A stretch of DNA of 64,000 bases from a bacterium (GTDB taxonomy: Bacteria; JAHJDO01), in contig JAHJDO010000042.1 in NCBI GenBank assembly GCA_018812485.1, forward strand, positions 9,512 through 73,511, written 5' to 3'. The notes beneath the pieces were generated by a model. That model saw nothing but the letters and a program-made list of their open reading frames with translations, made no database searches and was not told the DNA's origin. A program made the position numbers and the translations under genes. Below, in pieces: positions 12,213 to 49,784 of the stretch (position 1 is the stretch's first letter; each line of letters starts with the position of its first letter).

Positions 12213-12220
12213 GACAAATT

Positions 12221-15092: not shown

Positions 15093-15126
15093 TATGAACA
15101 AAAATTAGTTTTTAAAATATAAAAGC

Positions 15127-16620: not shown

Positions 16621-16622
16621 AT

Positions 16623-17699: not shown

Positions 17700-17759
17700 G
17701 GAACAAATATAAAGTTTAATAGTGGATTAATGTTAAAAAATCAATAGAATATTGTTTAT

Positions 17760-18479: not shown

Positions 18480-18491
18480 AGAAAAAGGATT

Positions 18492-23740: not shown

Positions 23741-23750
23741 TACGAGGAAA

Positions 23751-24902: not shown

Positions 24903-24945
24903 AATAAGTTTTACCTGATTTCATGAAAGCATGTAAGGAAATTCA

Positions 24946-26988
24946 ATGAAGACAAACCTAATGCTATCAGTAGTTGTACCAGTTTATAATGACCAGAAAT
25001 ACCTAGAAGGGTGTTTAAGGTCTATATTTGGCTCAGATTACCCTGATTTTGAGGTAATAGTGGTAAATGATGCTAGTACTGATGATTCTTTAGAGATAGC
25101 GAGAAAATTCCCCTGTCAAATTGTAGATCTAAAAACAAATGCTGGTGTAGCCAATGCTAGAAATAAAGGGGCTAATAATGCCAAAGGCGATATACTGGTC
25201 TTTTTTGATTCAGATGTGGAAGTTGAGCGGGATACCTTGTCAAGATTTGCCAAAGCCCACCAAAGGACAGATATTAAAGTATGCCAATGCCAAATATCTC
25301 CTTGCTCTTTGACTCCAGGATATATTCCAGAACTGATGGCAGTAATCTGGAATTATGTAGCTTGCTTAATGGCGCCATATAGTACAGCTGTTCGTTCAAT
25401 GTCCTTTTCAATTGATAAATCAGTATTTTTTGAGATTGGAGGATTTAATACCGTTTTTAAGTCAGCTGGCGGGGAAGAATATGAGATTGGAAGAGTCATC
25501 CAACAGCACGATTACAGGATATTTCTAGACTCCTCATTTCGTATACACCATAATTTTGAGAATTTTTTATCAAGATTTAAGAAGTTATTTAGAAGAAGTT
25601 ACGTCTATGGAAGGTTTGTCCTTCAAAGAAACTTCAAACTCGATAGAGGCCATGGGACTTTAAAAGAGGGCATTAATTCCCTGCTTTCGGTAATTGGAAT
25701 CTTAGAACTTCTTATTTCGTCGTTTATAGGTTGGACTTTCCTTTTGTTTTTAGCTACCATTATAATCCAACTTCTTTCTGACCTTGATCAGGGTATTTAC
25801 GTCACTAGAAAGAAAGGATTATTCTTTTTCATTCGTTCAATCCCCATAACTTATCTTTGGTATTTTGCAATGGGTCTAGGGGTTATTAAAGCAGGATTAA
25901 TGCATTATTTTACAAAGGTGTGTTCGACCTTAAGGAAGATAACTTTTTTGTTATCAAAAACTCCGGCATATGTCATATTCTTCGTAACTGCTAAATGTAA
26001 CGCTGGCTGTAAACATTGTTTTAATTGGAAGAAGGTACAAGAACAGGGTGTATCAGACGATCTTAGTTTAGAAGAGATTGAAAAGATGTCTAAATCTTGG
26101 GGTAACATAAAATACATGACCTATAGTGGTGGAGAACCCAGTTTAAGAGAAGACATTGTGGAGATAACTCAAAGCTTCTTTAAGAATAACCACTTAGAAA
26201 TGCTAAATTTTATTACCAATGGCTTTGCAGTTACCTCAGTTGTTAGCAAGATAAAAAAAATACTGAGAACTTGTCCTGGTTTAGACCTTACAGTGAGTTT
26301 TTCTATCGATGGTCTTGGGGATCAACATGATTCAATAAGAAACGCACCGGGAATCTTTGGGAGAGTGTTAGAGTCTATAGATAAAATAAGAAACCTAGAA
26401 AAGTATTACCCTAACCTGAAAATACTTGCTATAACCACTTATTCTAGCTTTAACAGAGATAATATATTTGATATTGTTGATTATATAACTAAAGGATTAA
26501 AATTAGAAATGATCCTGAATTATGTTCGCGGGGATACATTGGAAAAAAGCGCAGACCAAGTTGATTTGGATACCTATATGAAAGCGACCGAGACAATCGC
26601 AAAGCAAAACGCAATCAATTCCAGAAGATCCAGCATAGTTAGGGCACTGGATAATGTCTGCTTTAAGTTAATCGCCAAAACAAAAGAAGAAAAGAAGAGC
26701 TTAATACCTTGTTTGGTAGGAAAAAAGCTTATAGAAATAGGTAATGACGGTAGAATTTTCCCCTGTGAGATGTTGGATGTTGACTTTGGTAATGTATGCG
26801 ATTTCAATTACGATATAAATAAAGTTTTAAAAACAAAAAAAGCTTATGATTTTTTTAAGTTTCTAAATAAAAGGGATTGCTTTTGTACCTGGGAATGTGC
26901 AATGAAAAATAATATCGTTTACTCTATACCGAAATACCCTAGTCTGTTTTTAGAATGGTTTAGACAAGGTTTAAGCTTAAAGAATTAA
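24946..26988 (+). CDS. Tri-partite fusion: N-terminal GT2 glycosyltransferase, central transmembrane helices, C-terminal radical SAM/SPASM domain
   Basis: The N-terminus is LSVVVPVYNDQKYLEGCLRSI...VVNDASTDDS...FFDSDV (GT-A). Hydrophobic segments follow (LLSVIGILELLISSFIGWTFLLFLATIII). Then comes FVTAKCNAGCKHCFNW (Cx3Cx2C) with SGGEPSL and a C-terminal SPASM-like CLVGKK...FPCEM...CDF...CFCTWECAM. Confidence 0.7.
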   Translation: MKTNLMLSVVVPVYNDQKYLEGCLRSIFGSDYPDFEVIVVNDASTDDSLEIARKFPCQIVDLKTNAGVANARNKGANNAKGDILVFFDSDVEVERDTLSRFAKAHQRTDIKVCQCQISPCSLTPGYIPELMAVIWNYVACLMAPYSTAVRSMSFSIDKSVFFEIGGFNTVFKSAGGEEYEIGRVIQQHDYRIFLDSSFRIHHNFENFLSRFKKLFRRSYVYGRFVLQRNFKLDRGHGTLKEGINSLLSVIGILELLISSFIGWTFLLFLATIIIQLLSDLDQGIYVTRKKGLFFFIRSIPITYLWYFAMGLGVIKAGLMHYFTKVCSTLRKITFLLSKTPAYVIFFVTAKCNAGCKHCFNWKKVQEQGVSDDLSLEEIEKMSKSWGNIKYMTYSGGEPSLREDIVEITQSFFKNNHLEMLNFITNGFAVTSVVSKIKKILRTCPGLDLTVSFSIDGLGDQHDSIRNAPGIFGRVLESIDKIRNLEKYYPNLKILAITTYSSFNRDNIFDIVDYITKGLKLEMILNYVRGDTLEKSADQVDLDTYMKATETIAKQNAINSRRSSIVRALDNVCFKLIAKTKEEKKSLIPCLVGKKLIEIGNDGRIFPCEMLDVDFGNVCDFNYDINKVLKTKKAYDFFKFLNKRDCFCTWECAMKNNIVYSIPKYPSLFLEWFRQGLSLKN

Positions 26989-27124
26989 CTATTTGAACTA
27001 ATCGCCAGACTTTTTTATTTCTTTGATTCGCAAACGTTCTATAGTGGTTGTTCCCCAGGATTTTCCTACATGAATTTTTAAGACAATGCTTCCTTCGGTT
27101 TCTTTATTTTTACAACACTAGACG

Positions 27125-27151
27125 TTGACAGCCTCATCTGTTTGATATAAA
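27125..27151 (+). promoter_or_regulatory. Candidate internal sigma70-like promoter, TTGACA then 15-16 nt then TATAAA(AT)
   Basis: A perfect -35 TTGACA lies at 27125-27130 and TATAAAAT at 27146-27153. This is in the only intergenic gap larger than 150 bp inside the locus, about 60 nt upstream of the start I prefer at 27213. Confidence 0.25.
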
Positions 27152-27212
27152 ATCTAAATTGAGGGTAAAGTGGTGGGGTTTACCTGATTTCGTAAAAAAT
27201 AAGGGATTAATC

Positions 27213-28256
27213 ATGTTAAGGTTTGGAGTTGTGGGATTTGGTAAAATGGGGATGCTGCATACCAGTATTTTGAATTCACTTAAGAACGTTGAACTTGCTG
27301 CGATTGTAGATAACTCTAAACTTATCCTGAGTTCTATCCAGACTTTAATGCCTCATGTTAAAACATATAAAGACCACAAAAACATGTTAATGAATGAAAA
27401 TCTGGATTTTGTCGTAATATCTACGCCGGTTCACACACATACAAAGATAGCAATAGATTGTATAGAGAATGGATGCCACGTATTTCTTGAAAAACCAGCG
27501 GCGCAGAATTTAGAAGATTTTTACACCTTAAGGGAAGCAAGTTTGAGAAATAGTGATTTGATGATAATTACAGGCTACTGTTACAGGTACAGAAGCACTT
27601 TTAAGAAGGTAAAGGAAATACTTGATAGCGGTCTGCTCGGTAAAATTATTCTTTTTAACGGTGTAATGTACTCTTCAGACATTCGTAAGCCTGAGAGAGG
27701 ATGGCGTTTCAAGAAAAGCGAATCAGGCGGGGGAGTCATCATAGATTCCACTTCTCATGTTATTGATATGTTAGCCTGGTATCTGGGAAAACCTCATGAA
27801 ATTATGGCAAGAACATCTAATTGGTATTCAAAAGAGGTAGAGGACTATGTGCACGCGGTATATAGCTTCAATGATGGGCTGACGGGATGGATTGAATCTT
27901 CATGGGCAGTGCCAAACTACCGCGTTCCCAGCATGAAAATACATCTGATAGGAACAAAAGGTGAGGTGATAGTAACAACAGACGAAGTTAGATTGTTTTT
28001 AAATGAAGGCGGTGGGGCATACAAAAAAGGATGGACAGTTCAGTACGCTGTAGACCTGAGGCCCCCCGTAAATTTTGAAATATTCGAAGAGTTTTACACT
28101 CTGCAGTTAGAAGAATTCATCGCATGTATAACTCACAAGTCAGATCATTTAAACAGTCTGCCTCATACGGGTGTTACACAGCAAATAATTGAAACAATCT
28201 ATAAGTCTTCAGCCGTGAATGGTCAGGGAATAACGATGGATTTGGAGGAATTATAA
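27213..28256 (+). CDS. Gfo/Idh/MocA-family NAD(P)-dependent oxidoreductase (a likely sugar or NDP-sugar dehydrogenase)
   Basis: MLRFGVVGFGKMGMLH is the Rossmann N-terminus typical of the family, and there is an EKP motif (VFLEKPAA). The ORF track begins at a TTG at 27159, but the ATG at 27213 has an AAGGGA ribosome-binding site and gives the canonical N-terminus. Confidence 0.75.
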   Translation: MLRFGVVGFGKMGMLHTSILNSLKNVELAAIVDNSKLILSSIQTLMPHVKTYKDHKNMLMNENLDFVVISTPVHTHTKIAIDCIENGCHVFLEKPAAQNLEDFYTLREASLRNSDLMIITGYCYRYRSTFKKVKEILDSGLLGKIILFNGVMYSSDIRKPERGWRFKKSESGGGVIIDSTSHVIDMLAWYLGKPHEIMARTSNWYSKEVEDYVHAVYSFNDGLTGWIESSWAVPNYRVPSMKIHLIGTKGEVIVTTDEVRLFLNEGGGAYKKGWTVQYAVDLRPPVNFEIFEEFYTLQLEEFIACITHKSDHLNSLPHTGVTQQIIETIYKSSAVNGQGITMDLEEL

Positions 28257-28258
28257 GT

Positions 28259-29155
28259 ATGTCTGCAAGGATTGACAATATAATTTTAGGAGATAACCAA
28301 TTTTCAGGCGTTAATCATTTATCTCAAGCTCTCGGACAACTCAAGGCAATCAAGTTTCAGGATGATAACGAAATTAAAAAAATAATCGAATATGCGATCT
28401 CTCAAGGGGCGCAAGGCATGATGTTATCAACCCATGCAGAAGTGGAAAGGATTCTTAATATTATTAGAAACGACGATCTTCTTCAGAATAATCTTAATAT
28501 TTACCCCAATATTCCTGATATTGCTAAATATGTAAGACGAGCAACAACGCAGGGTGGAATAACAGGGCTAATGAAATCTATCCTGAGTCAGCTCAGCTTC
28601 GGTATGAAAGCCAGTCTTATAATTGAGGGCGGAAAAGGTCTGATGAAAAAAGATATTCTCAAGATGTTAGAAGTATTAATAGATTTAGAGATGGCTTTTT
28701 TTAGAGGTTTGAAAATAAAAGCCATATTTCTACATACCATAGTTGTTGATTTAGCGCTTGGCCTTGGCCTTGACCAAATACTTTCACACTACTATTCTTA
28801 TATAAAGGATAAATATAATGTTATTCCCGGTTTTGGGACTCTAAATCTGCCAAAACTTCTTAATAAACTCCAGATGTTAGGGATTGATTACCCGTTGATA
28901 ATGACATCGGTTAACAAAAAAGGATTTTATATGAATCCAAGCAAGGCAGCATGTGAAGAAGTTATAAACGATGGTAAGTGCGAGATTTTAGCAATAGGAA
29001 CGCTTGCATCCGGAGCCATTTCTCTGCGTGAAGCGTATGAATATCTTTTTTCATTTCATAACATAAAATCATTAGTCATCGGCGCATCAACTAAAGATCA
29101 TATTAAACAGTCTTTCGATTTGGTGAAGTCTTACCATGCTCATAGGCAACAATAG
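28259..29155 (+). CDS. Hypothetical protein
   Basis: The 298-aa ORF is co-directional and tightly packed with its neighbours. I recognise no motif in it. Confidence 0.3.
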   Translation: MSARIDNIILGDNQFSGVNHLSQALGQLKAIKFQDDNEIKKIIEYAISQGAQGMMLSTHAEVERILNIIRNDDLLQNNLNIYPNIPDIAKYVRRATTQGGITGLMKSILSQLSFGMKASLIIEGGKGLMKKDILKMLEVLIDLEMAFFRGLKIKAIFLHTIVVDLALGLGLDQILSHYYSYIKDKYNVIPGFGTLNLPKLLNKLQMLGIDYPLIMTSVNKKGFYMNPSKAACEEVINDGKCEILAIGTLASGAISLREAYEYLFSFHNIKSLVIGASTKDHIKQSFDLVKSYHAHRQQ

Positions 29156-31475
29156 GCATAGGATTAGTTCTGCTTTGAAAATAATATCTAAATTTTACAA
29201 TGAAGAGCTTGAAAGCATCTTTGCTAGAATCTTATACTTCTTTAACACGATTGATACATATTTTATTCTTGTAGGAATCAGCTCTTTTGTCATCGTTTTT
29301 CCGGGAAAAGTCAATGTTATAGTGCTGGTGCTATCTCTGTTGTTTGCGTTGATTACGGCAAAAATCGCTGATTTTTATCCCAGTTTTGTGATACTTGCTA
29401 TTCCTGTACTTATTATACTTGGAATTGTATTAGATCTTTCAGGGTCATTAATAATGGCTCTTTTTATTGTAAATACAGCCCTGTTTTTTATAATACAGTT
29501 TGTTTTTATGGGCATACCTGATTCAATAGTTGCCCGTGATATACGAGTTGCTTTTATAAAAATATACAATTCATTATTTACGGTTGCTCCAACAACAGTT
29601 TCTTTTTCTATGAGTGTCTTCTTTTCATTCTATGTATCCTTTTGTATAGCTGCAGCCGTTTCATGCCGAGCAATAAAGGATTATACCTTGCTTGGGGCAG
29701 CGGGAGTAATTCTCTTTTTTTGTGCTTTGCTTGCCCGTTCAATGCGACCCAAAAACCTTTTCAGCAAGTTCCATAAGCCGGATGTCAGGGCTAACCCGAT
29801 ATTTAAACGGGTAGTGATTCTGAATATAGATGGTGTAAGAAAAGATGTTTTTGACTCATTAAATTTACCTGCAATAGCCAGATTAACCAAGGAGGGTACA
29901 AGCCATGCATTTGGACTGGAGACTGTATATCGGGCGTTAACCAATCCTGCATTTGCAAGTATATTTACGGGTACTATTCCCAGTGTTCACGGCGTCCGCA
30001 GCAACAACTTCGGACAATCAATTGTAACAGAGGGTTTGCCTGATATTGTCCCGTCTATTGCATACGGTTCAATGCATGTTAAACATTTTTGCAAGAAGTA
30101 CTGGCAGACACGTATAGTCTCATTGCCCCGCCATTCCGTATATCTTTCCGACGATATAATGGTAGACTGGCTTAAAGATGATATGCTTAATAGACCAGAG
30201 ATACGTCTTTTTGTCGCAGATTTCAGCGAAGCGGATTTTCTTGCTCACGCCTACGGCAGTAAGTCTAGGCAATACAAGGAAGCTCTTCAGAGGATTGATA
30301 AGCGTATAGGAGATTTTATAGATTGGATGAAATCAAATAACATGTCAGATGATACAGCGGTTATTGTATGTTCTGATCATGGAATAGCGGCAATTGACCA
30401 CAGCTATCTTATAGCTGATTCAGAAAGATATGTGCCCTTTTTGATTTATGGGAAGGGTATCAAAAAAGGATTCCATATACAGCGGCCGGGAACAATTATG
30501 GATATTTGCTGTACAGTCGCATACTTTCTTGGAATCCGATATCCCTATAATTCAAGAGGACAGGTCTTTACTGAAGCGCTTGAGGATTCTGATCTTGAGT
30601 CAGAGAAAGAAACATTTGTCAGTAGATTCAACCAGTTGAAGTATGATGCTGAAGCTGAGCAGTACCATTGTGACCATGTTGAGATTTATGCCGGAGACGC
30701 ACAGTGGTGGGATCAGTGTATTTCGAAGTTTATAATGGACAAAAAATGCGATCTGAGAGTGCTTGATATCGGATGCGGCAATGGCTTTGTGGGTGAAAGA
30801 TTTGTCGCAATGGGGGTCAATTTTAGTGATTTTGTATGTATGGATATTTCTAAAAACATACTTGAGGAAGCTAAGAAAACGCTTGGGAAATATCCCGGAT
30901 TTTCCTTTACAACCAGTTTAGATGATGTTAATGGAACATTTGACATAATTACTGCCAGCTCGGTTTTTCATCATGTTGTTCATCCGGATAAGCTTGCAGA
31001 TATCATTGACAGGTTTCTCGCAGAAGATGGAATTGTGATTGGAAGCCATGAGCCAAATAAGGAAGCATTTAAAAAGAAGTTGTTTTATGCAGGAGCAGCT
31101 TTATATAAAGGAATAGGCGGAAGTATAAGTATTAGCAATGAAGTCGTGCGTGAGTTCAATGATCTGCTCCGTAACAGATATCCAAATGCTCCCGGCGTCT
31201 GCCGTGAAGAGATACTTCAGATGGTAGAGTATCACTCTCCTTTGGAGCAGTATGATAAGTCTATTGATTTACAAAGCGGGTTCATACCGGATGAGTTCTG
31301 CAAACTATGCTTTCCAGGATATAAAGTACTCCTGCTTGAGACCTACTCAACATTTTCTCATAGGCTATGGCTGTCAAAACATAAAAGAATACAATCTTTG
31401 CTTGTTGCTATGTTTAATCTTTTATTTAAACGGGGCAATCTCTTCAGATTCGTCTTGAGGAAAAAGGAGATATGA
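29136..31475 (+). CDS. Fusion of membrane-anchored alkaline-phosphatase-superfamily (type I phosphodiesterase/NPP-like) domain with a C-terminal class I SAM methyltransferase domain
   Basis: About six N-terminal transmembrane helices come first. VVILNIDGVRKDVFDS and VIVCSDHGIAAIDHS then match the metal-ligand motifs of the Phosphodiest/AP superfamily. The C-terminus VLDIGCGNGFVGERF...IITASSVFHHV is a methyltransferase motif I plus post-II. Confidence 0.55.
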   Translation: MLIGNNRHRISSALKIISKFYNEELESIFARILYFFNTIDTYFILVGISSFVIVFPGKVNVIVLVLSLLFALITAKIADFYPSFVILAIPVLIILGIVLDLSGSLIMALFIVNTALFFIIQFVFMGIPDSIVARDIRVAFIKIYNSLFTVAPTTVSFSMSVFFSFYVSFCIAAAVSCRAIKDYTLLGAAGVILFFCALLARSMRPKNLFSKFHKPDVRANPIFKRVVILNIDGVRKDVFDSLNLPAIARLTKEGTSHAFGLETVYRALTNPAFASIFTGTIPSVHGVRSNNFGQSIVTEGLPDIVPSIAYGSMHVKHFCKKYWQTRIVSLPRHSVYLSDDIMVDWLKDDMLNRPEIRLFVADFSEADFLAHAYGSKSRQYKEALQRIDKRIGDFIDWMKSNNMSDDTAVIVCSDHGIAAIDHSYLIADSERYVPFLIYGKGIKKGFHIQRPGTIMDICCTVAYFLGIRYPYNSRGQVFTEALEDSDLESEKETFVSRFNQLKYDAEAEQYHCDHVEIYAGDAQWWDQCISKFIMDKKCDLRVLDIGCGNGFVGERFVAMGVNFSDFVCMDISKNILEEAKKTLGKYPGFSFTTSLDDVNGTFDIITASSVFHHVVHPDKLADIIDRFLAEDGIVIGSHEPNKEAFKKKLFYAGAALYKGIGGSISISNEVVREFNDLLRNRYPNAPGVCREEILQMVEYHSPLEQYDKSIDLQSGFIPDEFCKLCFPGYKVLLLETYSTFSHRLWLSKHKRIQSLLVAMFNLLFKRGNLFRFVLRKKEI

Positions 31476-32989
31476 AGATAATTTTTCCTGTTATGGGTGC
31501 TGAGAATATATCAGTCAGCTATCTTTCGACAGTTCTTAAAGAGGCTGGGCATATAGTTAAGGTGGCTTTTGATCGTTCACTATTTGATGATAAGCAATAT
31601 TTTTCCGTTCCTTTTCTCAGCCGTATGTTCACTGAAAAAAAGAGAATGATAAAAGAAATAATCAGGGAGAAGCCTGATATTCTTGCTATGTCTGTATTCG
31701 CCGATAATTACCAATGGGGTCTTGAAGTGGTACGTGAAGTACGTAAATGCCACATGTGCATTACTGTATGGGGTGGAATGCATCCTACTTCCTGCTCGGA
31801 GGAAGTTATCAGTAGAGACGAGGTGGATTACATGATTGTAGGGGAGGGGGAAACCCCTTTCATGGAATTGCTTGAAGCGCTTGAAAAGAAGGAATCGCCA
31901 GAAAGTATTTCCAATTTGTGGATGAAGAAAAACGGCAAGGTAATTCGTAACAAGCCTAGATTATTAATGGACCCCAAAGCTTTTCCAGCTGTAGACAAAA
32001 CCATATATGAAAAGTTTATCCCAATGAAGGACTATTACCTTACTGTTACATCTAAGGGGTGTATTGCCCACTGCAGTTATTGTACGCAGAATTTTCTCTG
32101 GAAATGGGAAAAAGAAGAAGGATTAGGACATTTTCTCAGAGAAAAATCTGTTGATGCTGTATTAGACGAATTAAAGGCAATGAAAAAACGTTATAGTATC
32201 CGTTATGTTGATATAAAAAATAATGTACTTTCAGGTAACAGCAAATGGTTTGATGAGTTTCTTGCGCGTTATCCTGAAGAGATTCAGTTGCCTTTCAGAA
32301 TAATGGGACATCCTCTGTTGTTTCAAAAAGACCTGGCAGTCAAATTAAAAAAGGCAGGCTGTCATCATATTCAAATAGGAATTGAATCATTAAATCCCGA
32401 AGTAAGAAAAAAAGTGCTGTTTCGCAACGAGACTAACGAGCAGATTATCAGAGCGCTTGATAATATTGAAAAAGCAGGTATTAATTTTTCCGCAGATCTG
32501 ATGTTGGGTCTTCCGGGAGAGTCGGAGGACGACCTGATTTTAGCTCTTAAAACTCTTGCAAAATATCGCAGACTCATACGTTCGTCCGTATTCTGGCTTC
32601 AGTATTTGCCAAGCGTTGATATTACCAGAATGGCCATATTGAAAGGCTATATAAACAAAGGAAACGAAATAAAAATTGTTCAGGGGCTTCAGAATAACTA
32701 CTTATCAACAGGCTCATCAATGGAGCCGCAGAGAATGAGAATACTCAAGACATACCATATCATGTTCCGTTTACTTCCTATTGTTTCTCAGAGAATCATG
32801 AATTTTCTGATAAACTCTGGGATATATCGCATATTCAGGTATATCCCATTCCAGATATTTGCTATCATCGTCATTGATGTGTTTGTTTCTTTTGTGCGCA
32901 AGGACTACTATGCAAAATGGATTATGGGATGGTATTTCAAACAGCTGTTTAAGCATCTTACCGGAAAGGTAGAGACAATTTCAGATTAA
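31472..32989 (+). CDS. B12-binding-domain radical SAM protein (class B-like)
   Basis: The N-terminal cobalamin-binding-like domain (MKIIFPVMGAENISVSYLSTVLKEAGH...DILAMSV) precedes TSKGCIAHCSYCTQ (Cx3Cx2C). This is the first of three tandem paralogs. Confidence 0.75.
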   Translation: MKIIFPVMGAENISVSYLSTVLKEAGHIVKVAFDRSLFDDKQYFSVPFLSRMFTEKKRMIKEIIREKPDILAMSVFADNYQWGLEVVREVRKCHMCITVWGGMHPTSCSEEVISRDEVDYMIVGEGETPFMELLEALEKKESPESISNLWMKKNGKVIRNKPRLLMDPKAFPAVDKTIYEKFIPMKDYYLTVTSKGCIAHCSYCTQNFLWKWEKEEGLGHFLREKSVDAVLDELKAMKKRYSIRYVDIKNNVLSGNSKWFDEFLARYPEEIQLPFRIMGHPLLFQKDLAVKLKKAGCHHIQIGIESLNPEVRKKVLFRNETNEQIIRALDNIEKAGINFSADLMLGLPGESEDDLILALKTLAKYRRLIRSSVFWLQYLPSVDITRMAILKGYINKGNEIKIVQGLQNNYLSTGSSMEPQRMRILKTYHIMFRLLPIVSQRIMNFLINSGIYRIFRYIPFQIFAIIVIDVFVSFVRKDYYAKWIMGWYFKQLFKHLTGKVETISD

Positions 32990-32993
32990 AACT

Positions 32994-34466
32994 ATGAAAA
33001 TATTATTTATTGATAATTTTTCGTTTAATTTTGGCATCGCATCTATTTCATCTGTATTGAAACAGAGTGGTCATGATGTGGAGTTGTTATATTACACATT
33101 TTCTAAAATGAAAGGCATCGATATTTATCGTAATCCCAGTAAATATTATTCGTTTAATAAGATAGCTGATGAGATAATTGGAAGGAAACCTGATATTATA
33201 GGGTTTTCTGTTTTAAGCTCAAATTACATGTTCTATAAAAACACAGCTGAAGCCATTCGCAGAAGAACAGATATTCCTATTTTAACAGGAGGTGTGTTCC
33301 CGACTATGAGTCCAGATTTTTTTATAGAGAATACCTGCTGCGACTTTGTATTCAGGGGAGAAGCAGAACCTGTAATTGTGGAACTTATTGAAAAAATAGC
33401 TTTAGGAAAGTATTATGATGTGCCAAATATCGTTTACAGAGAAAAAGGAGGGACTGTTGTTCACAACGAAATGTCCAGCTTTGTCGATGACCTAGATGCT
33501 CTTCCGTTTTATGATAAGGAAGTATATCCAGGTGTTCCATTTCAGTTGAATATGTCAACCAGCCGTGGATGTGTCAATTCCTGCAGCTATTGTTCTTCCG
33601 GGAAATATACCAGACTAACGGTCAGAGGAGGAGCTGGAAAAGTCAGGAAAAGAAGCGTGGACTCTATTATTAAAGAGATAAAACAAGCTTTGCGAAAATG
33701 GCCATATAAAGAGATCTCTTTCTGGGACGATTTTTTTATTACAACACCTAAATGGTTATCGGAATTTGTGGAGAAATATAGCAAAGAAATAAATCTTCCT
33801 TATAATTGCATAGCTTTTCCTGCGGTGATAAATAATGAGGTAGCGTCATTATTAGCCGGGTCTGGATGCAATGTTGTATGTATGGGATTTCAGACTGCAA
33901 ATGAAGAATATAAAAAGAATGTACTAAGAAGAAGAGAAACTAAAAAACAAGTTGCTAAAGCCATAAACCATCTGGAAGAGCATGGAGTTAAATACAGCTT
34001 AGACCATATTTTTAATTTACCAGGTGAGACAAAAGAGCATATTGAAGAATCTTTGGATTTTTTTATCAATAACAAAGTAAAATGGGTATCAATATATTTC
34101 CTTAATTATTATCCTGATTCCGATATTACAAAGTATTCCTATGATAATGGTTTTATTGGCTCTGAGCAGTTCTCTAAAATCATGAAAAATGAACTGATTG
34201 GCGATCAGGCATTTAAAGGAACCATCGTTGATAAAAAGAAATCTAAAGAGCAGGTTCAGTACGCTTTACTTTTTAGATTGATTAATTTACTGCCTGCCAA
34301 ATGGTTGAAACGGATGCTAAAGAATGATATTCAAAAAAGGTTTCCGACTAATAAATATTTATACTATAGTCTTTCTTTGTTAACCTTGTTTAAAGCGCAG
34401 GGTTTTAGAAGAGTTTTGACATTTGTCAATCCTTATTTCAAATTCAGGAAAAACGTATGCGAATAG
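32994..34466 (+). CDS. B12-binding-domain radical SAM protein (class B-like)
   Basis: The N-terminal B12-like domain precedes TSRGCVNSCSYCSS. Confidence 0.75.
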   Translation: MKILFIDNFSFNFGIASISSVLKQSGHDVELLYYTFSKMKGIDIYRNPSKYYSFNKIADEIIGRKPDIIGFSVLSSNYMFYKNTAEAIRRRTDIPILTGGVFPTMSPDFFIENTCCDFVFRGEAEPVIVELIEKIALGKYYDVPNIVYREKGGTVVHNEMSSFVDDLDALPFYDKEVYPGVPFQLNMSTSRGCVNSCSYCSSGKYTRLTVRGGAGKVRKRSVDSIIKEIKQALRKWPYKEISFWDDFFITTPKWLSEFVEKYSKEINLPYNCIAFPAVINNEVASLLAGSGCNVVCMGFQTANEEYKKNVLRRRETKKQVAKAINHLEEHGVKYSLDHIFNLPGETKEHIEESLDFFINNKVKWVSIYFLNYYPDSDITKYSYDNGFIGSEQFSKIMKNELIGDQAFKGTIVDKKKSKEQVQYALLFRLINLLPAKWLKRMLKNDIQKRFPTNKYLYYSLSLLTLFKAQGFRRVLTFVNPYFKFRKNVCE

Positions 34467-34479
34467 GAAAAGAGTAAAA

Positions 34480-35898
34480 ATGAAAATAACTTTAATAAAT
34501 CCGCCGCTTACTCTGGATGAAGCATATGGAAACTACAGCGACTTAGCTTCTTTTCTGCCTCAACTGGGTTTATGCGCTTTGGCCAGCTATTTAATAAAAT
34601 ATGGATACAAAGAAGTAAGGATAATTGATGCTAATGTATTAGGGAGCAGTCTCAGCAATATCGTCAAAGACGTTATGAGCGATTCTCCAGATTTAATAGG
34701 AATATATAACAGTACATCTAACTACTTTTCTGTATCTAGTTTGGTTTCTGAAATAAAAAAAACGAAAAGATCACAAAAAATAGTCTTAGGCGGACCACAT
34801 CCCAGTTTTCTTCCTGAAGAGATATTAACCGAAACCGCAGTTGACTATTGCGTAATAGGGGAAGGAGAAGAGACTTTATTAGAATTAGTTCAACATATTG
34901 AAGGTAATTCTGATGAGCTAAACAAAATAGATGGATTGGCTTATAAGACCAGTGATGACAAAATAATAATAAACAAACCGAGAAAACGGATTGATGATTT
35001 AGACAGCCTGCCATTTCCAGCCGTTCATCTGTTACCTCCGCTTTCAAAATATAAATTTTATCCTTTGCAATCCAAGAGATCGCCGTATATGACATTGATA
35101 ACATCAAGAGGGTGCCCATATAATTGCGTTTTTTGTGAGACTCCTTTTGGCAAGACAGTGCGATATCATAGTCCGGAGTACGTGGTTAATTATATAGATT
35201 ATTTGGTTAAGCAATTCGGTGTTAAAGAATTATGTTTCGTTGATGATACCTTTACTCTTAAAGAAAAGAGAGTTTTTGAAATATGCGGTCTGATACAAAA
35301 GATAAATCTTGATGTTAGCTGGTACTCTGCTACGCGTGCAAACATAAAAGACAAAACCATTTTTAATGAAATGAGAAAAGCAGGTTGCTGGATCTGCGCC
35401 ATAGGCGCAGAGTCCGGAGATCCTGAGGTACTTCGTTTGATAGGGAAGGGGGTCTCTCTGGATGAGATTAAATCATCCTGCGAGGCGGTTCTAAAAGCAG
35501 GGATAGTGTTAAAAACATTTTTTATTCTCGGGAATCCAGGTGAAACGCTTGAAACAATAGAGAAAACAATAAAATTTGCAAAGTCCCTGAAAGCACATTA
35601 TCCAGTTTTCAGCCTGATGACTCCGTTTCCAGGAACTGAATTATGGAATACAGCTGAAAAATATGGCACTTTTGATCGCTCAAATTTTCAGAAACTTATA
35701 ATTTCTACTGCGGATCCTGTATTTGTCCCCTATGGTTTGACAAAAGAAATTTTGTTGAAGAAGCAAAAGGAAGCCTTCAGAAGAACCTATTTTAGCTTAG
35801 GTATGGTCAAAAAGCAGTTATGCGCTATTAAATCTATAGATGATGTCAAGAAACTGGGCAAAGCAGCTATTGCTTTCTTAAAGTTACAGTTTAACTGA
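34480..35898 (+). CDS. B12-binding-domain radical SAM protein (class B-like)
   Basis: MKITLINPP...DLIGIYNS precedes TSRGCPYNCVFCETPF. I place the start at the ATG at 34480, which has a GGAAAAGAG ribosome-binding site, rather than at the overlapping 34423. Confidence 0.75.
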   Translation: MKITLINPPLTLDEAYGNYSDLASFLPQLGLCALASYLIKYGYKEVRIIDANVLGSSLSNIVKDVMSDSPDLIGIYNSTSNYFSVSSLVSEIKKTKRSQKIVLGGPHPSFLPEEILTETAVDYCVIGEGEETLLELVQHIEGNSDELNKIDGLAYKTSDDKIIINKPRKRIDDLDSLPFPAVHLLPPLSKYKFYPLQSKRSPYMTLITSRGCPYNCVFCETPFGKTVRYHSPEYVVNYIDYLVKQFGVKELCFVDDTFTLKEKRVFEICGLIQKINLDVSWYSATRANIKDKTIFNEMRKAGCWICAIGAESGDPEVLRLIGKGVSLDEIKSSCEAVLKAGIVLKTFFILGNPGETLETIEKTIKFAKSLKAHYPVFSLMTPFPGTELWNTAEKYGTFDRSNFQKLIISTADPVFVPYGLTKEILLKKQKEAFRRTYFSLGMVKKQLCAIKSIDDVKKLGKAAIAFLKLQFN

Positions 35899-35932
35899 TT
35901 GTGATGATACCTGTAAAAAAGGAGTAAAGGAT

Positions 35933-36988
35933 ATGAGTTCGAAGCTTACGACACTTATTAGAGGGCGTAAGGCAATGTTTAGCCTGTTGAAGTGTAAATT
36001 TAGCAAGAAGCGTATTCCGGTCAGAGCAAGCTTTTTGGTAACGAAATATTGCAATCTGAGATGCTTTTATTGTTACACTAAGGATATTCTAAATGATAAA
36101 AACGTACACGAGCCAACCATTGATGAGTTAAAAAACACTATTGATCAAATTTATGAGGCTGGATGCCGCTGGATAAACATTTTAGGTGGCGAGCCTCTTA
36201 TGAGAGATGATATCGAAGAATTCATTAATTATGTCAGTAATAAAGGAATGTTTATGGAGATAACCACAAATGGTTTTTTCGTAAAGAAGAGGATAAAAGC
36301 ATTAAAGAAAGTAGATCATCTTTGTATAAGTTTGGATGGAAATAAAGAGTCTAATGATAAAAGTCGCGGTAAAGGATCTTTTGAGAAAATCGTTGAAGGG
36401 ATTGAATACGCTGTAACAAACGGTCTAAGCGTAAGAGTACATGCGACACTATGCAAAAGGACAATGCAGGGTAAATCATTGGAGTTTTTGTCAGATTTTT
36501 GCAACAGACTGAAAATAAAACTGAACTATTCAGAGAACGGTCTGCCAGGAATAGAGAAGATGGATCCTGATTTTCTTCTTTCCAGAGAGGAAACCATGAA
36601 TTTCTACAGAAGTTATAAAAGTTTAAGGAATAAAGGATTTCCTATAATTAGTTCAGACGTGGCGGTAGAATATGCATCAAAATGGCCTCTTCAAGGACAG
36701 ACAATCATTTATAAGAAAGACCTTCACAAAATTCCAAAAGGCAGTTTTTATCCCTGTGAGCTTGGGAGAAGCCAATGTTTTATTACCAGTGACGGTTATG
36801 TATACCCTTGTTCAAAAAAATGGGGTTATGGGAAAAATCTATATGAGGTAGGATTTAAAGAAGCTTGGAATTATTTGGAAAATCTAGACTGCGTAGCTTG
36901 TAAAGAGCTTGGGACTATAGAGCAAAGTCTTATTACAGGTCTTAATCCCAGCGCTTTGTTCAACGCCATAACAAATTTTGCGCTATAA
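35933..36988 (+). CDS. Radical SAM/SPASM-domain protein
   Basis: The cluster motif is VTKYCNLRCFYCY with GGEPLM. The C-terminal region is CFITSDGYVYPCSKKWGYG...CVACKELG. It is a paralog of the 16623 gene. Confidence 0.7.
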   Translation: MSSKLTTLIRGRKAMFSLLKCKFSKKRIPVRASFLVTKYCNLRCFYCYTKDILNDKNVHEPTIDELKNTIDQIYEAGCRWINILGGEPLMRDDIEEFINYVSNKGMFMEITTNGFFVKKRIKALKKVDHLCISLDGNKESNDKSRGKGSFEKIVEGIEYAVTNGLSVRVHATLCKRTMQGKSLEFLSDFCNRLKIKLNYSENGLPGIEKMDPDFLLSREETMNFYRSYKSLRNKGFPIISSDVAVEYASKWPLQGQTIIYKKDLHKIPKGSFYPCELGRSQCFITSDGYVYPCSKKWGYGKNLYEVGFKEAWNYLENLDCVACKELGTIEQSLITGLNPSALFNAITNFAL

Positions 36989-37007
36989 ATTTAAAGGAAT
37001 TAAAGTC

Positions 37008-37625
37008 ATGAACTGTAAATATTGTATAGATGATATAAAGTACACAGTGGAAGTTGTTGATATAGAGACAAAGTGCAAATATCATAAGAAAATAGGAGAG
37101 GTATATTCGTCATCAGCGGTTGCTCCTGCTGGTTTATGCCGCGAACTTTTTTACACAGCTTATCCAAGATGCCTGGCTGTGCTTTACAGCGGAAAGCCTA
37201 CGCGCGGATGGTTAAGGGGAAAAGGAGTGCGGAGTATGACTGTTCGGTGTCCTGCAGCAAACGGCATAAAAGTATTGATTAGAGTAGAAGATATTTTTAT
37301 CCCGCCGATACGCATGGTTAAGGAGCTTGTTGAAGAATTATGTAAAGTTATATATAGGCCATTGGATGGTCCTTTTAGAAAAGTTGCTATTGAGATTATT
37401 GAAACAGGTTCCGATTGTCCAAAAGGATATCACATGGGAGATACCTTTTACTTTAATGTAGATAAGCAAGATGAATTGTGTCCTGCTGGGTTTGCAACTA
37501 TATATCCATATTTAAGGCGTATGAGAAATACCAAGAAAAATAATGGTTTGCTACACTCAATTAAAGTGCACTGTCCTGATTGTGTCGGCGTAACATATAA
37601 TGTAACTATTAAAGAAGATAAATGA
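37008..37625 (+). CDS. Cys-rich protein with two internal repeats, resembling the uncharacterised TIGR04076 family
   Basis: Two copies of the module C-P-x3-5-G-x2-F ... P-x-G-(F/L)-C-x3-(I/F)-Y-(P/T)-Y are present: CRELFYTAYPRC...VRCPAANGIKV and DCPKGYHMGDTFYF...ELCPAGFATIYPYL...HCPDCVG. I place the start at the ATG at 37008, which has an AAAGGA ribosome-binding site. Confidence 0.4.
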   Translation: MNCKYCIDDIKYTVEVVDIETKCKYHKKIGEVYSSSAVAPAGLCRELFYTAYPRCLAVLYSGKPTRGWLRGKGVRSMTVRCPAANGIKVLIRVEDIFIPPIRMVKELVEELCKVIYRPLDGPFRKVAIEIIETGSDCPKGYHMGDTFYFNVDKQDELCPAGFATIYPYLRRMRNTKKNNGLLHSIKVHCPDCVGVTYNVTIKEDK

Positions 37626-37647
37626 TGTTGTTGTAATCGGAGGTTTT

Positions 37648-38142
37648 ATGCAAGATTTTAAAAATATTTGTAAATTCTGTAATGAGATAAAGTTGAATTT
37701 GGTTTGCGGTGGTAAAGAATTCGTATTGGGCGATATATTACCCGATAATATTTGTCCTCTTGCTTTTCATAGTATCTATCCTTATATAATTACCCTTTCG
37801 AAAGGCGGCTGGCTTAATTGGGTGGGGCATGATGAACATGTTATTGTAAATTGTCCATTTGGGCGTGGTGTCGCTATGTACGTTAAGGCTCCTTCTTTAA
37901 AATCACAACAGTATCTAGAAGTTGAGGTGATGAAAATCAGAGAGAATAACGAATGTTATAAAGGATATGTGTTAAAAAAAGTTTTTCAATTTAATATAAG
38001 CGATGAGAATATGTTTAAGTTGGGGTTATTATATAGATCTATTCCTTTTATTCTAAGCAGAGATGATGATAACAATAGTGATCCGATGGAAATTTGTTAC
38101 AATTTTGAAGGGGAAAAAGTTCAATGTCAGGTGGAGTTTTGA
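37648..38142 (+). CDS. Cys-rich TIGR04076-like protein, paralog of the upstream gene
   Basis: ICPLAFHSIYPYIITLSKGGWLNW...VNCPFGRGVAMYVKA parallels CRELFYTAYPRCLAVLYSGKPTRGWL...VRCPAANGIKVLIRV in the upstream protein. A GGAGG ribosome-binding site precedes the start. Confidence 0.4.
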   Translation: MQDFKNICKFCNEIKLNLVCGGKEFVLGDILPDNICPLAFHSIYPYIITLSKGGWLNWVGHDEHVIVNCPFGRGVAMYVKAPSLKSQQYLEVEVMKIRENNECYKGYVLKKVFQFNISDENMFKLGLLYRSIPFILSRDDDNNSDPMEICYNFEGEKVQCQVEF

Positions 38143-38948
38143 TAGATAAACTACGAAATAAGACTGTGCTGATTACTGGCGCATCGAAGGGAATTGGTAG
38201 GGCTATAGCCCTACTATTCAGCGGTTACAATATGAAAATTGGTTTGATAGCTCGTTCTGAAGATAAACTTAAAGAGGTATCCAATTGTGTGAATTCAGCT
38301 GGTGGCGAAGCTTTGATATTAAATACAGATTTGAGGGATCGAAAAGCCATAGAAGATGCAGTGCTTGAATTTAAAAATAAATTTGGTGAACCTGATTTTT
38401 TAATTAATAATGCAGGAATAGCTGCTCGTGGTTTTTGGCAGGATATTTCGCTTGATTCAGAGCTTGATGTAATGAACGTTAATTACACAGCAGCTGTTAT
38501 TCTTATGCGCCTTCTGTTGCCTGGTATGATGCAAGCCGACAGTGGGCATATAATAAATATTAGTGCGATTGCAGGAATATATACTGCTCCATATCAGGGA
38601 GCATATTGTGCAAGCAAGGCAGCTCTCCTGGCTTATTCAGTAAGTCTTGGTTATGAGTTAGAGAAGACAAATGTAAAGATTTCCTCAATATTATTTCCAG
38701 GTCCAGTCGATACTGATTTTTTGAAAAGCCCAAATTTTGAAAGTTTTAGAAAATTTAAAGATATAATATCTCCAGACCTTATAGCTCAGAGCGTTCTGTC
38801 AGTAATTGAGAATCCAAAAGAAATGGTTTTCGTAGGGCCACTATGGAAATTAATTGCAGCAAAGATTGCAAGTTTAAAGCCCGAATTCTTCAGGAAAATA
38901 ATTGAAAAAAAGAATACGCCTCCAGAATCTCTTGATGTTTTTAAGTAA
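38124..38948 (+). CDS. Short-chain dehydrogenase/reductase (classical SDR)
   Basis: VLITGASKGIGRAIA is the TGxxxGxG motif. NNAG is present, and the catalytic tetrad has Y at YCASKAA (YxxxK). Confidence 0.75.
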   Translation: MSGGVLIDKLRNKTVLITGASKGIGRAIALLFSGYNMKIGLIARSEDKLKEVSNCVNSAGGEALILNTDLRDRKAIEDAVLEFKNKFGEPDFLINNAGIAARGFWQDISLDSELDVMNVNYTAAVILMRLLLPGMMQADSGHIINISAIAGIYTAPYQGAYCASKAALLAYSVSLGYELEKTNVKISSILFPGPVDTDFLKSPNFESFRKFKDIISPDLIAQSVLSVIENPKEMVFVGPLWKLIAAKIASLKPEFFRKIIEKKNTPPESLDVFK

Positions 38949-38953
38949 ATATT

Positions 38954-40015: not shown

Positions 40016-40016
40016 G

Positions 40017-40832: not shown

Positions 40833-40840
40833 TTGGCTGG

Positions 40841-41521: not shown

Positions 41522-41523
41522 CA

Positions 41524-44473: not shown

Positions 44474-44477
44474 AACA

Positions 44478-46031: not shown

Positions 46032-46059
46032 GAATGTTAGCTTATAAGAAAGGGCTGAG

Positions 46060-48611: not shown

Positions 48612-48630
48612 ATTATAAAAGATTTTACAT

Positions 48631-49770: not shown

Positions 49771-49784
49771 AAGTTTAAAGCTGT

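What the first reader, a model, noticed from the sequence alone, without database searches (positions are those of the whole stretch)
31472..35898. Tandem array of three paralogous B12-binding radical SAM genes
Three back-to-back ~490-505-aa class-B radical SAM paralogs are separated by only 4-14 bp, and three more sit elsewhere in the locus (7963, 44478, 51691). Tandem class-B paralogs suggest iterative or regio-specific methylation or rearrangement of the same scaffold. Known sugar-acting precedents include GenK and GenD1 in gentamicin and Fom3 in fosfomycin. This points to a poly-C-methylated or branched-chain sugar product.
Basis: partly seen in the sequence, partly recalled or inferred. 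Interest (0 to 1): 0.6.

Follow-up and report, generated by a model that had tools for sequence, protein, structure and literature searches.

The report
Three distinct B12 radical-SAM glycan-tailoring genes
The three adjacent genes are real cobalamin-type radical SAM enzymes inside a 59-kb cell-surface sugar-polymer operon, but they are three old, separately inherited enzyme families rather than recent copies, and sequence cannot show whether they methylate sugars.

Summary
Observation confirmed. 31472-32989 (A), 32994-34466 (B) and 34480-35898 (C; start corrected) each encode a B12-binding domain plus a radical SAM core with CX3CX2C. Three more such genes lie at 7963, 44478 and 51691. All sit in one tightly packed, roughly 50-gene plus-strand glycan operon (3709-62746) that holds 12 radical SAM enzymes.

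Interpretation only partly supported. A, B and C share 21-26% identity and fall in three separate clades, each with its own orthologues at 45-80% identity across phyla. They are not tandem duplicates.

A's constant partner is the upstream membrane-anchored NPP-like phosphodiesterase/methyltransferase gene (29136), usually with a GT9 glycosyltransferase. Some relatives fuse that methyltransferase domain to A. C often accompanies A. B is accessory: present in one close relative (L109), absent in another (L081), and solitary elsewhere.

None of the six reaches any curated family cutoff. Predicted folds of A and B match TsrM, MgmA, OxsB, CysS and TokK about equally. C-methylation of a glycan intermediate is the most likely chemistry, but ring contraction or dehydration cannot be excluded.

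Verdict: uncharacterised class-B radical SAM subfamilies in an unusually radical-SAM-rich envelope-glycan pathway. Moderately interesting.

The parts
3709..62746 (+). Single-strand envelope-glycan operon of about 50 genes that contains the finding
   Evidence: 8 GT2/GT4/GT9 glycosyltransferases, Wzx-like flippase (5770), PMT_2 and YfhO-like GT-C proteins (18492, 20252), NDP-sugar epimerases/dehydratases, 6 class I methyltransferase domains and 12 radical SAM enzymes. Median intergenic gap 4 nt, 17 overlaps.
23712..24902 (+). GT9 (heptosyltransferase-like) glycosyltransferase; recurrent member of the A module
   Evidence: Pfam Glyco_transf_9 85.9 bits. Best NCBIfam model is heptosyltransferase II at 96 bits, below the 134.6 cutoff. 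An orthologue lies upstream of A in most A loci.
24946..26988 (+). GT2-radical SAM fusion protein; relatives have a stand-alone radical SAM gene of about 365 aa at this position
   Evidence: Pfam Glycos_transf_2 and Radical_SAM. A small rSAM lies between GT9 and the AP/MT gene in L078, L079 and L081.
29136..31475 (+). Membrane-anchored NPP-like phosphodiesterase/phosphotransferase domain plus C-terminal class I methyltransferase domain; A's constant partner
   Evidence: Pfam Phosphodiest 104 bits plus Methyltransf_11/12. Hydrophobic segments within residues 36-204. Closest solved structure is Xanthomonas NPP 2gsn, with the Thr-nucleophile motif LTNPA aligned to LTFPN. Adjacent or near A in 22 of 25 distinct A loci. 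Its MT domain is 35% identical (E 2e-55) to the C-terminal domain of A-MT fusion proteins. Its stop overlaps A's start.
31472..32989 (+). A: class-B radical SAM enzyme of a highly conserved uncharacterised subfamily
   Evidence: Pfam. CX3CX2C at residue 197. Model pLDDT 85.9, with Foldseek top hits TsrM, MgmA, OxsB, CysS and TokK. Orthologues at 60-81% identity in Omnitrophota and Nitrospinaceae. No NCBIfam cutoff met.
32994..34466 (+). B: class-B radical SAM enzyme, accessory subfamily, sister group to A
   Evidence: Pfam. CX3CX2C at residue 193. Model pLDDT 89.7, with Foldseek hits TsrM 3e-20 and MgmA 5e-19. Orthologues at 44-74% identity, including Magnetococcus marinus MC-1. Present in L109 and L005, absent in L081.
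34480..35898 (+). C: class-B radical SAM enzyme from the clade that also holds D, E and F; frequent companion of A
   Evidence: Pfam B12-binding 71 bits and Radical_SAM 88 bits. Best sub-threshold models are HpnJ at 233 bits (cutoff 577.6) and BchE at 192 bits. Best PDB sequence hit is AprD4, 90 bits over the rSAM core. Follows A directly in L081 and L099.
35933..36988 (+). Radical SAM enzyme with a partial SPASM/twitch domain
   Evidence: Pfam. Orthologue follows the B12-rSAM genes in L005, L079, L039 and L042.
36978..37625 (+). Cys-rich TIGR04076-family protein (two repeats)
   Evidence: NCBIfam TIGR04076 60.6 bits against a cutoff of 33. Conserved after rSAM351 in L005, L079 and L080.
37648..38142 (+). 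Second TIGR04076-like small protein (borderline)
   Evidence: 32.4 bits against a cutoff of 33. Syntenic in L005, L079 and L080.
38124..38948 (+). Short-chain dehydrogenase/reductase
   Evidence: Pfam adh_short 158.9 bits. Syntenic in L005, L039, L042 and L080.
38954..40015 (+). Radical SAM/SPASM enzyme
   Evidence: Pfam. No NCBIfam cutoff met.
40017..41521 (+). Purine nucleoside phosphorylase (40017-40832) and adenine-PRTase-like gene (40841-41521)
   Evidence: NCBIfam PRK08202 287 bits, above the 218 cutoff. APRT subfamily 132.8 bits, below the 143 cutoff. Syntenic in L005.
7963..9420 (+). D: class-B radical SAM enzyme with a CX4CX2C cluster motif
44478..46031 (+). E: class-B radical SAM enzyme, closest in-window relative of C (32.5% identity)
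51691..53199 (+). F: class-B radical SAM enzyme

Best explanation
A, B and C are three non-orthologous class-B (cobalamin + [4Fe-4S]) radical SAM tailoring enzymes. They are co-transcribed in a 59-kb envelope-glycan operon of an uncultivated bacterium whose closest named relatives are Omnitrophota. Each probably performs its own single radical step on a glycan intermediate at the cytoplasmic face of the membrane. A works as a unit with the upstream membrane-anchored NPP-like phosphodiesterase/transferase-methyltransferase (29136) and a GT9 glycosyltransferase. C is a frequent additional step. B is a strain-variable accessory step. The most likely chemistry for each is methyl transfer from methylcobalamin to an unactivated carbon after H-abstraction by the 5'-deoxyadenosyl radical. 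Shown: domain architecture, fold, operon context, independent phylogeny, and gene linkage including the fusion. Inferred: substrate (sugar, or a phospho-linked substituent of a lipid- or nucleotide-linked glycan), cytoplasmic-face location, and methylation.
For: Architecture and cluster motif. Class-B fold with a Rossmann N-domain for A and B. Glycan context in the window and around orthologues in other phyla. Distinct ancient clades. The A-29136 linkage holds in 22 of 25 distinct loci, and the three exceptions are cut by contig ends. ATGA overlap between 29136 and A. Rosetta-stone fusion of the 29136-type MT domain to A. The AP and MT domains are contiguous after the TM segments, so both should face the cytoplasm where SAM is available (inference). 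B is accessory: present in L109, absent in L081, solitary in M. marinus and L007. Methylation prior: per PMC12931638, C-methyltransferases are by far the most represented group, and every group that has a characterised member includes them.
Against: No biochemical data exist for any of the three subfamilies, and none reaches a curated family cutoff. The best sub-threshold models for C are the non-methylating HpnJ and BchE, and its best PDB sequence hit is the cobalamin-free diol dehydratase AprD4. Fold matches to methylases, OxsB and AprD4 are nearly equivalent. Cobalamin binding is inferred from domain and fold, not shown. The substrate is unknown; it could be a nucleotide sugar, a lipid-linked glycan or a non-sugar substituent.
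Confidence: 0.6

Rival explanations
1. One reading: the three genes are tandem paralogs that iteratively or regio-specifically C-methylate one sugar scaffold, giving a poly-C-methylated or branched-chain sugar.
For: Adjacent and co-oriented with 4- and 13-nt gaps. Class-B fold. Sugar-pathway context. The A-B-C order recurs in L109. Methylation is the commonest class-B chemistry.
Against: Identity is 21-26% and the clades are separate. B is absent between A and C in L081, and A, B and C occur independently elsewhere. A's fixed partner is a phosphodiesterase-like/MT protein rather than another B12-rSAM. Nothing shows that they share a substrate.
Confidence: 0.2
2. At least one of the three, most plausibly C, is a non-methylating class-B-type enzyme acting on a sugar. 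Candidate reactions are ring contraction or carbocycle formation (HpnJ- or OxsB-like), or 1,2-diol dehydration followed by reduction by the nearby SDR (AprD4/AprD3-like).
For: C's best models are HpnJ at 233 bits and BchE at 192 bits, and its best PDB sequence hit is AprD4 at 90 bits. An SDR (38124) is syntenic with C-type genes in L005, L039, L042 and L080. Non-methylating enzymes cannot be told from methylases by structure.
Against: All these scores are far below family cutoffs (577.6, 481 and 500). C has the strongest B12-binding Pfam hit of the six (71 bits), unlike cobalamin-free AprD4. Non-methylating members are a minority of the characterised enzymes.
Confidence: 0.3
3. A acts on phosphorus chemistry together with the NPP-like domain of 29136, for example P- or C-methylation of a phosphonate/phosphinate head group attached to the glycan (PhpK-, Sden_1168- or Fom3-like).
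For: Strict A-29136 linkage. Class-B P-methyltransferases exist. E (44478) scores 170 bits on the Sden_1168 P-methyltransferase model.
Against: No Pfam PEP-mutase or phosphonopyruvate-decarboxylase hit on any of the 50 operon ORFs of at least 150 aa scanned. A scores only 61 and 43 bits on the PhpK and Sden_1168 models, against cutoffs of 600 and 575.
Confidence: 0.07
4. The radical SAM genes mature a ribosomal peptide (RiPP), or modify a membrane lipid (hopanoid-, ladderane- or GDGT-type), rather than a glycan.
For: Sub-threshold hits to RiPP C-methyltransferase, ApyD, ladderane and HpnJ models. Several SPASM-type rSAM genes are present.
Against: There is no room for a precursor gene. The median gap is 4 nt, and the only gaps over 100 nt are 166 and 170 nt; the 170-nt gap was scanned and holds only 26-aa ORFs, the 166-nt gap is the leader upstream of the first operon gene and was not scanned for short ORFs. 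No lipid-biosynthesis genes are present. Glycosyltransferases, a flippase and NDP-sugar enzymes dominate here and in homologous loci.
Confidence: 0.05

Closest known systems
GenK / GenD1 (gentamicin) class-B radical SAM sugar C-methyltransferases
   Same: Same superfamily and architecture (B12-binding + radical SAM). They act on unactivated sugar carbons in a multi-step sugar-tailoring pathway. This is the mechanistic model adopted here as most likely (named in PMC12931638).
   Different: Those are secondary-metabolite (aminoglycoside) enzymes of actinomycetes. Here the context is an envelope-glycan operon with a flippase and GT-C enzymes. Sequence relationship could not be tested because no sequences or models are available in these tools.
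TsrM, MgmA/QCMT, TokK, CysS (structurally solved class-B methylases) and OxsB
   Same: Best Foldseek matches for the A and B models over nearly full length (E 1e-12 to 3e-20, TM about 0.55-0.74).
   Different: Only 12-18% identity, and the substrates are unrelated (tryptophan, MCR glutamine, carbapenem, cystobactamid, a nucleotide). The matches span methylation and ring contraction alike, so they do not assign chemistry.
HpnJ (hopanoid-associated class-B rSAM, TIGR03471) and BchE
   Same: Best-scoring curated models for C, D and F, and among the top three for E. HpnJ is listed among class-B enzymes with 'other or unknown transformations'.
   Different: Scores of 132-233 bits against a cutoff of 577.6. 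No hopanoid or bacteriochlorophyll genes are nearby. Not members.
AprD4/AprD3 (radical SAM 1,2-diol dehydratase + reductase acting on an aminoglycoside sugar)
   Same: Best PDB sequence hit for C (90 bits over the rSAM core). A nearby conserved SDR could play the AprD3 role.
   Different: AprD4 does not bind cobalamin, whereas C has a strong B12-binding domain hit. The NF033070 score is 99.5 bits against a cutoff of 500.
LPS inner-core machinery (GT9 heptosyltransferases plus AP-superfamily phospho-substituent transferases such as EptB/EptC)
   Same: The A module pairs a GT9 enzyme with a membrane-anchored alkaline-phosphatase-superfamily enzyme. HddA- and HddC-like genes lie at the 3' end of the operon. 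The analogy to Ept enzymes rests on my own knowledge.
   Different: All matches are below equivalog cutoffs. The AP domain is NPP-type with a Thr nucleophile and appears cytoplasmic, fused to a methyltransferase. No radical SAM enzymes are known in canonical core biosynthesis. The module also occurs in an archaeal MAG (L048).

Membership tests
Class B (cobalamin-dependent) radical SAM enzymes | Radical SAM core with a CX3CX2C [4Fe-4S] motif | tested here: met
   Pfam Radical_SAM 71-88 bits for A, B and C. Motifs at A197, B193 and C213. Conserved in all 145 A/B/C-class ORFs in the fetched loci.
Class B (cobalamin-dependent) radical SAM enzymes | N-terminal Rossmann-type B12-binding domain | tested here: met
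   Pfam PF02310 53, 62 and 71 bits against a cutoff of 32.1. The A and B models align over full length to the cobalamin-bound TsrM, MgmA, OxsB, TokK and CysS. No structure was predicted for C.
Class B (cobalamin-dependent) radical SAM enzymes | Actual cobalamin binding and use | not testable with these tools
   No sequence motif defines the base-off, His-off binding mode (PMC12931638). AprD4-like proteins keep the fold without binding cobalamin.
Recent tandem paralogs (gene duplicates) | The members are each other's closest relatives and share high identity | tested here: not met
   Identity is 21-26%. Three clades with bootstrap 100, 100 and 88 of 100, and C is closer to E than to A or B. Orthologues of each at 45-80% identity exist in other phyla.
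GenK/GenD1/Fom3-type C-methyltransferases | Phylogenetic grouping with the characterised enzymes; methyl transfer to an sp3 carbon | not testable with these tools
   No sequences or curated models for these enzymes were reachable. They did not appear among the NCBIfam or PDB hits.
HpnJ (TIGR03471) | Score at or above the curated cutoff of 577.6 bits; hopanoid gene context | tested here: not met
   A 59.6, B 109.4, C 233.3 bits. No hopanoid genes in the window.
BchE (TIGR02026) | Score at or above 481 bits; bacteriochlorophyll context | tested here: not met
   A 67, B 69, C 192 bits.
AprD4 diol dehydratase (NF033070) | Score at or above 500 bits | tested here: not met
   C 99.5 bits, B 35 bits, A not listed.
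RiPP radical SAM C-methyltransferases (TIGR03975, ApyD NF050148) | Score above cutoff and an adjacent precursor peptide gene | tested here: not met
   A 80 bits against 282; B 117 bits against 750. No precursor-sized ORF beyond 26 aa in the 170-nt gap that was scanned; the other gap over 100 nt (166 nt) is the operon leader and was not scanned for short ORFs.
P-methyltransferases (PhpK TIGR04479, Sden_1168 NF038361) | Score above cutoff; phosphonate (PepM) pathway nearby | tested here: not met
   A 61 and 43, B 78 and 79, C 141 and 147 bits against cutoffs of 600 and 575. No PEP mutase hit in any of the 50 operon ORFs of at least 150 aa scanned.

The most novel reading that the evidence does not exclude
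The conserved GT9 / small rSAM / NPP-like-methyltransferase / A module, with its variable B, C, SPASM-rSAM, TIGR04076 and SDR add-ons, may be an undescribed and widely distributed radical-SAM pathway. It would build or decorate an envelope sugar with no characterised counterpart, for example a C-methylated, carbocyclic or phospho-substituted heptose-like residue. It is found in Omnitrophota, Nitrospinota, CPR bacteria and DPANN/methanogen archaea. Up to 12 radical steps would be spent on one glycan.
Probability: 0.3. Interest if true: 0.7.

Novelty: new variant of a known kind. Interest (0 to 1): 0.45.

Why it matters
Class-B radical SAM enzymes number more than 220,000, in over 100 sequence groups, and most groups are unexplored (PMC12931638). 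Characterised sugar-acting members come from antibiotic pathways. Here, three uncharacterised subfamilies are tied by conserved synteny, and for A by a gene fusion, to cell-envelope glycan assembly in lineages that are mostly uncultivated. If the products were identified, this would extend radical C-H functionalisation to primary surface-glycan biosynthesis. It would also give function to large protein families now annotated only as 'B12-binding radical SAM' or mislabelled 'BchE/YgiQ'. The A-29136 pair is a defined two-protein target for biochemistry. The B orthologue in the cultured Magnetococcus marinus MC-1 offers an experimental entry point.

Tried and rejected
1. Curated family assignment: NCBIfam on all six B12-rSAM proteins gave no hit above any cutoff. 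Names such as BchE or YgiQ in source annotations are therefore rejected.
2. PDB sequence search gave only weak or partial hits.
4. Fold comparison cannot separate methylase from non-methylase.
5. Literature searches for cobalamin radical SAM enzymes in polysaccharide, LPS or rfb contexts, and for TIGR04076, found nothing relevant.
6. The RiPP hypothesis was rejected for lack of any precursor ORF.
7. No riboswitch or other Rfam element lies in the window. Promoter-like and terminator-like matches are at chance level.
8. No tRNA genes.
9. A first bootstrap script timed out and was re-run with a faster distance method.
10. A canonical GDP-heptose pathway was rejected as a firm assignment. The HddA- and HddC-like genes score below cutoff, and no GmhA or GmhB was found.


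Full report
OBSERVATION. The window carries one long plus-strand gene cluster from 3709 to 62746, about 50 genes at roughly 35% GC. The median intergenic gap is 4 nt and there are 17 overlaps. Within it, 31472-32989 (A, 505 aa), 32994-34466 (B, 490 aa) and a third ORF ending at 35898 (C) lie head to tail. The mechanical ORF for C starts at a TTG (34423). The ATG at 34480 (472 aa) is the start called on the source contig, and it leaves a 13-nt gap after B. The A-B gap is 4 nt, and the upstream gene's stop overlaps A's ATG. All three, plus 7963 (D), 44478 (E) and 51691 (F), have Pfam B12-binding and Radical_SAM domains above the gathering scores. Five have CX3CX2C; D has CX4CX2C. The cluster is in fact richer in radical SAM genes than reported. 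It also holds five SPASM/twitch-type radical SAM genes and a GT2-radical SAM fusion, which makes 12 in total.

CONTEXT. The remaining genes are typical of envelope-glycan synthesis:
- Eight GT2/GT4/GT9 glycosyltransferases.
- A Wzx-type flippase.
- PMT_2-like and YfhO-like GT-C membrane proteins.
- Five NDP-sugar epimerase/dehydratase genes.
- A DegT aminotransferase.
- Six class I methyltransferase domains.
- A split transketolase.
- A GHMP kinase and a nucleotidyltransferase whose best, sub-threshold matches are HddA and HddC of the GDP-heptose pathway.

No Rfam element, tRNA or peptide-precursor ORF is present. The source is an NCBI MAG labelled only '[bacterium]'. The closest named orthologue of A (77% identity) is from an Omnitrophota MAG.

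ARE THEY TANDEM PARALOGS? Pairwise identities are A-B 25.8%, A-C 26.5% and B-C 20.9%. C's closest in-window relative is E at 32.5%. Each protein has its own orthologue series in public data:
- A: dozens of clusters at 60-81% identity (Omnitrophota, Nitrospinaceae/Nitromaritima), then about 45-50% identity (Binatia and others).
- B: about 34 clusters at 44-74% identity, including Magnetococcus marinus MC-1.
- C: a large family at 40-77% identity, including Patescibacteria, Methanoregulaceae and Altiarchaeota.

A neighbour-joining tree of 74 sequences gives monophyletic A (100/100), B (100/100) and C (88/100) clades. A and B fall in one superclade (88/100), and C groups with D, E and F. Within-family identity is at least 33-46%, and between-family identity is at most 30%. 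The three genes are therefore anciently diverged subfamilies, not recent duplicates.

GENE LINKAGE. 26 fetched loci (25 distinct contigs) carry an A orthologue (at least 500 bits). In 22 of the 25, a homologue of the upstream gene 29136 lies next to or near A. The three exceptions are truncated by contig ends. A GT9 gene and a small radical SAM gene usually lie just upstream. B is absent from all of these loci.

Gene 29136 encodes hydrophobic N-terminal segments (residues 36-204) followed by an alkaline-phosphatase-superfamily domain. That domain is closest to bacterial nucleotide pyrophosphatase/phosphodiesterase, with the Thr-nucleophile and metal-ligand motifs aligned. A class I methyltransferase domain follows. 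In some relatives that methyltransferase domain is fused to the C-terminus of the A-type enzyme instead: 35% identity, E 2e-55. This is Rosetta-stone evidence that A and this methyltransferase act together. No transmembrane segment separates the phosphodiesterase-like and SAM-dependent domains, so both should face the cytoplasm. I infer that A's step takes place at the cytoplasmic face of the membrane.

C follows A directly in L081 (A 80% identical; 24-nt gap) and in L099, and it shares contigs with A in many further cases (matching contig lengths). The full 29136-A-B-C order recurs in one close relative, L109 (67, 77, 73 and 74% identity). L005 keeps the run from B and C through rSAM351, two TIGR04076 genes, the SDR, an rSAM/SPASM gene, PNP, PRTase and NicX. 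B orthologues also occur without A or C, in M. marinus next to GT4 and TPR-GT41 genes, and in L007 among SIS, transaldolase, GHMP-kinase, nucleotidyltransferase and Wzy genes. B thus behaves as an accessory cassette. The cluster as a whole is mosaic between relatives, as surface-glycan loci usually are.

Loci with several B12-rSAM genes are common in this (biased) sample: 34 of 76 have two or more, 17 have three or more, 16 have adjacent pairs, and one other has an adjacent triple. They span Bacteria, CPR and archaea.

WHAT CHEMISTRY? None of the six proteins reaches any curated NCBIfam cutoff. The best sub-threshold models are:
- A: the MJ_1487 family, RiPP C-methyltransferase and ladderane models, at about 80-90 bits.
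- B: ApyD at 117 bits and HpnJ at 109 bits.
- C: HpnJ at 233 bits (cutoff 577.6) and BchE at 192 bits.

PDB sequence hits are weak for A and B. For C the best is AprD4, at 90 bits over the radical SAM core only. AlphaFold models of B (pLDDT 89.7) and A (pLDDT 85.9) show a Rossmann-type N-domain, a partial TIM barrel and a helical C-terminal domain. They match TsrM, MgmA/QCMT, OxsB, CysS and TokK at E 1e-12 to 3e-20, followed by AprD4. These matches cover radical and polar methylation, ring contraction and dehydration. A 2026 review states that non-methylating members lie in the largest sequence group and show no structural features that distinguish them from alkylating enzymes. It also states that C-methyltransferases are by far the most represented group (PMC12931638).

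Methylation is therefore the best prior but is not demonstrated. I put it at about 0.45-0.5 per enzyme, and lower for all three together. It is touched by C's best hits, but the scores are too far below cutoff to count as placement.

MOST LIKELY MECHANISM. Shown: three co-transcribed class-B radical SAM enzymes of distinct lineages in an envelope-glycan operon, with A genetically coupled to an NPP-like/methyltransferase protein and a GT9. Inferred: a GT9-installed sugar, possibly heptose-like, or a phospho-linked substituent handled by 29136, is modified on a membrane-bound or nucleotide-linked intermediate. A, and C where present, each add one radical modification, most probably a C-methyl group. 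B adds a further strain-variable modification. The downstream rSAM351, TIGR04076 pair, SDR and rSAM/SPASM block supplies additional redox tailoring.

RIVALS. Four alternatives are scored in the rival list:
- Iterative methylation by duplicates.
- Non-methylating chemistry, especially for C together with the SDR.
- Phosphorus chemistry.
- RiPP or lipid targets.

NOVELTY AND SCORE. The enzymes belong to a known superfamily. The subfamilies, the A-29136-GT9 module with its fusion variants, and the density of radical SAM genes in a primary glycan operon have no characterised counterpart that I could find. I rate this a new variant of a known kind, with interest 0.45. It offers a clear and testable lead into unexplored class-B families, but there is no evidence of chemistry outside the known repertoire.

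Noticed in passing
window 7963-9420; L055 11470-12981; L076 19547-21004; L053 3807-4838; L106 4487-5944: The fourth B12-rSAM (D) has CX4CX2C (CWWGKCKFC) instead of CX3CX2C. The unusual spacing is conserved in all four orthologues found (CPR, Woesearchaeota, Gammaproteobacteria and one metagenome contig). All 151 A/B/C/E-class ORFs have the canonical spacing.
   Followed up: partly
window 40017-42468; L079 15819-17345; L080 16921-18402: Purine-metabolism genes sit inside the radical SAM module. The window has a purine nucleoside phosphorylase (above cutoff), an APRT-like gene and a NicX-family gene. L079 and L080 have a PurH-like AICARFT/IMPCHase gene, and L079 also has a dCMP deaminase. This could be salvage of the 5'-deoxyadenosine made by 12 radical SAM enzymes, or nucleoside-derived building blocks. 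It remains unexplained.
   Followed up: partly
window 53193-58468: A split transketolase (N and C subunits), an HddA-like GHMP kinase, a DegT aminotransferase, a NUDIX hydrolase and an HddC-like nucleotidyltransferase form a putative heptose-like nucleotide-sugar pathway. All score below equivalog cutoffs, and no GmhA or GmhB is present. From memory, transketolase converts 5-deoxyribose (from 5'-deoxyadenosine) to 7-deoxysedoheptulose in a cyanobacterium. A link to the PNP gene is pure speculation.
   Followed up: partly
window 36978-38142; L005 4092-5238; L079 12595-13701; L080 2829-4001: Two small Cys-rich proteins always follow the 351-aa radical SAM gene. One is a TIGR04076 family member at 60.6 bits (cutoff 33) and the other is borderline at 32.4 bits. 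The family has no known function, and only two papers mention it incidentally.
   Followed up: partly
window 24946-26988: A GT2 glycosyltransferase is fused to a radical SAM domain (680 aa) with a hydrophobic linker at about residues 242-280. Relatives have a separate radical SAM gene of about 365 aa at the same position between GT9 and the AP/MT gene.
   Followed up: partly
P0203, P0210, P0221 (A family); P0098 (B-like): Natural fusions of a B12-radical SAM enzyme with a C-terminal class I methyltransferase domain (771-840 aa). In the A family, the fused domain is homologous to the MT domain of gene 29136.
   Followed up: yes
window 2213-3542 (- strand): Two genes are divergent from the operon. 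One is a prepilin-type N-terminal ([13 protein letters not shown]) protein with a C-terminal H-X9-DG-like motif typical of PVC-group bacteria. The other is a probable XRE-HTH plus cupin regulator at 2973-3542, which could control the operon. Both calls were read from sequence only.
   Followed up: no
window 26989-27158: The largest intergenic gap inside the operon (170 nt) contains the best sigma-70-like match of the scanned region (TTGACA-17-TAAAAT, 27125-27153). This could be an internal promoter for the sub-operon from 27159 through A-B-C. Such matches occur at chance frequency overall.
   Followed up: no
window 46866-48611, 58493-60616, 60627-61577, 61637-62746, 28259-29155: Five proteins have no Pfam or NCBIfam match. 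Three are polytopic membrane proteins (46866, 60627, 61637; 7-12 hydrophobic segments) and are possible polymerase-, ligase- or acyltransferase-like components. 58493 has only a terminal hydrophobic segment at each end, and 28259 has one internal hydrophobic stretch. 46866 has an orthologue in L081 (712 bits).
   Followed up: no
L081, L005, L109 compared with window 12790-48631: Close relatives share many operon genes at high scores but in different combinations. L081, for example, lacks B and the whole 35933-43517 block. This modular, strain-variable content is typical of surface-glycan loci.
   Followed up: partly
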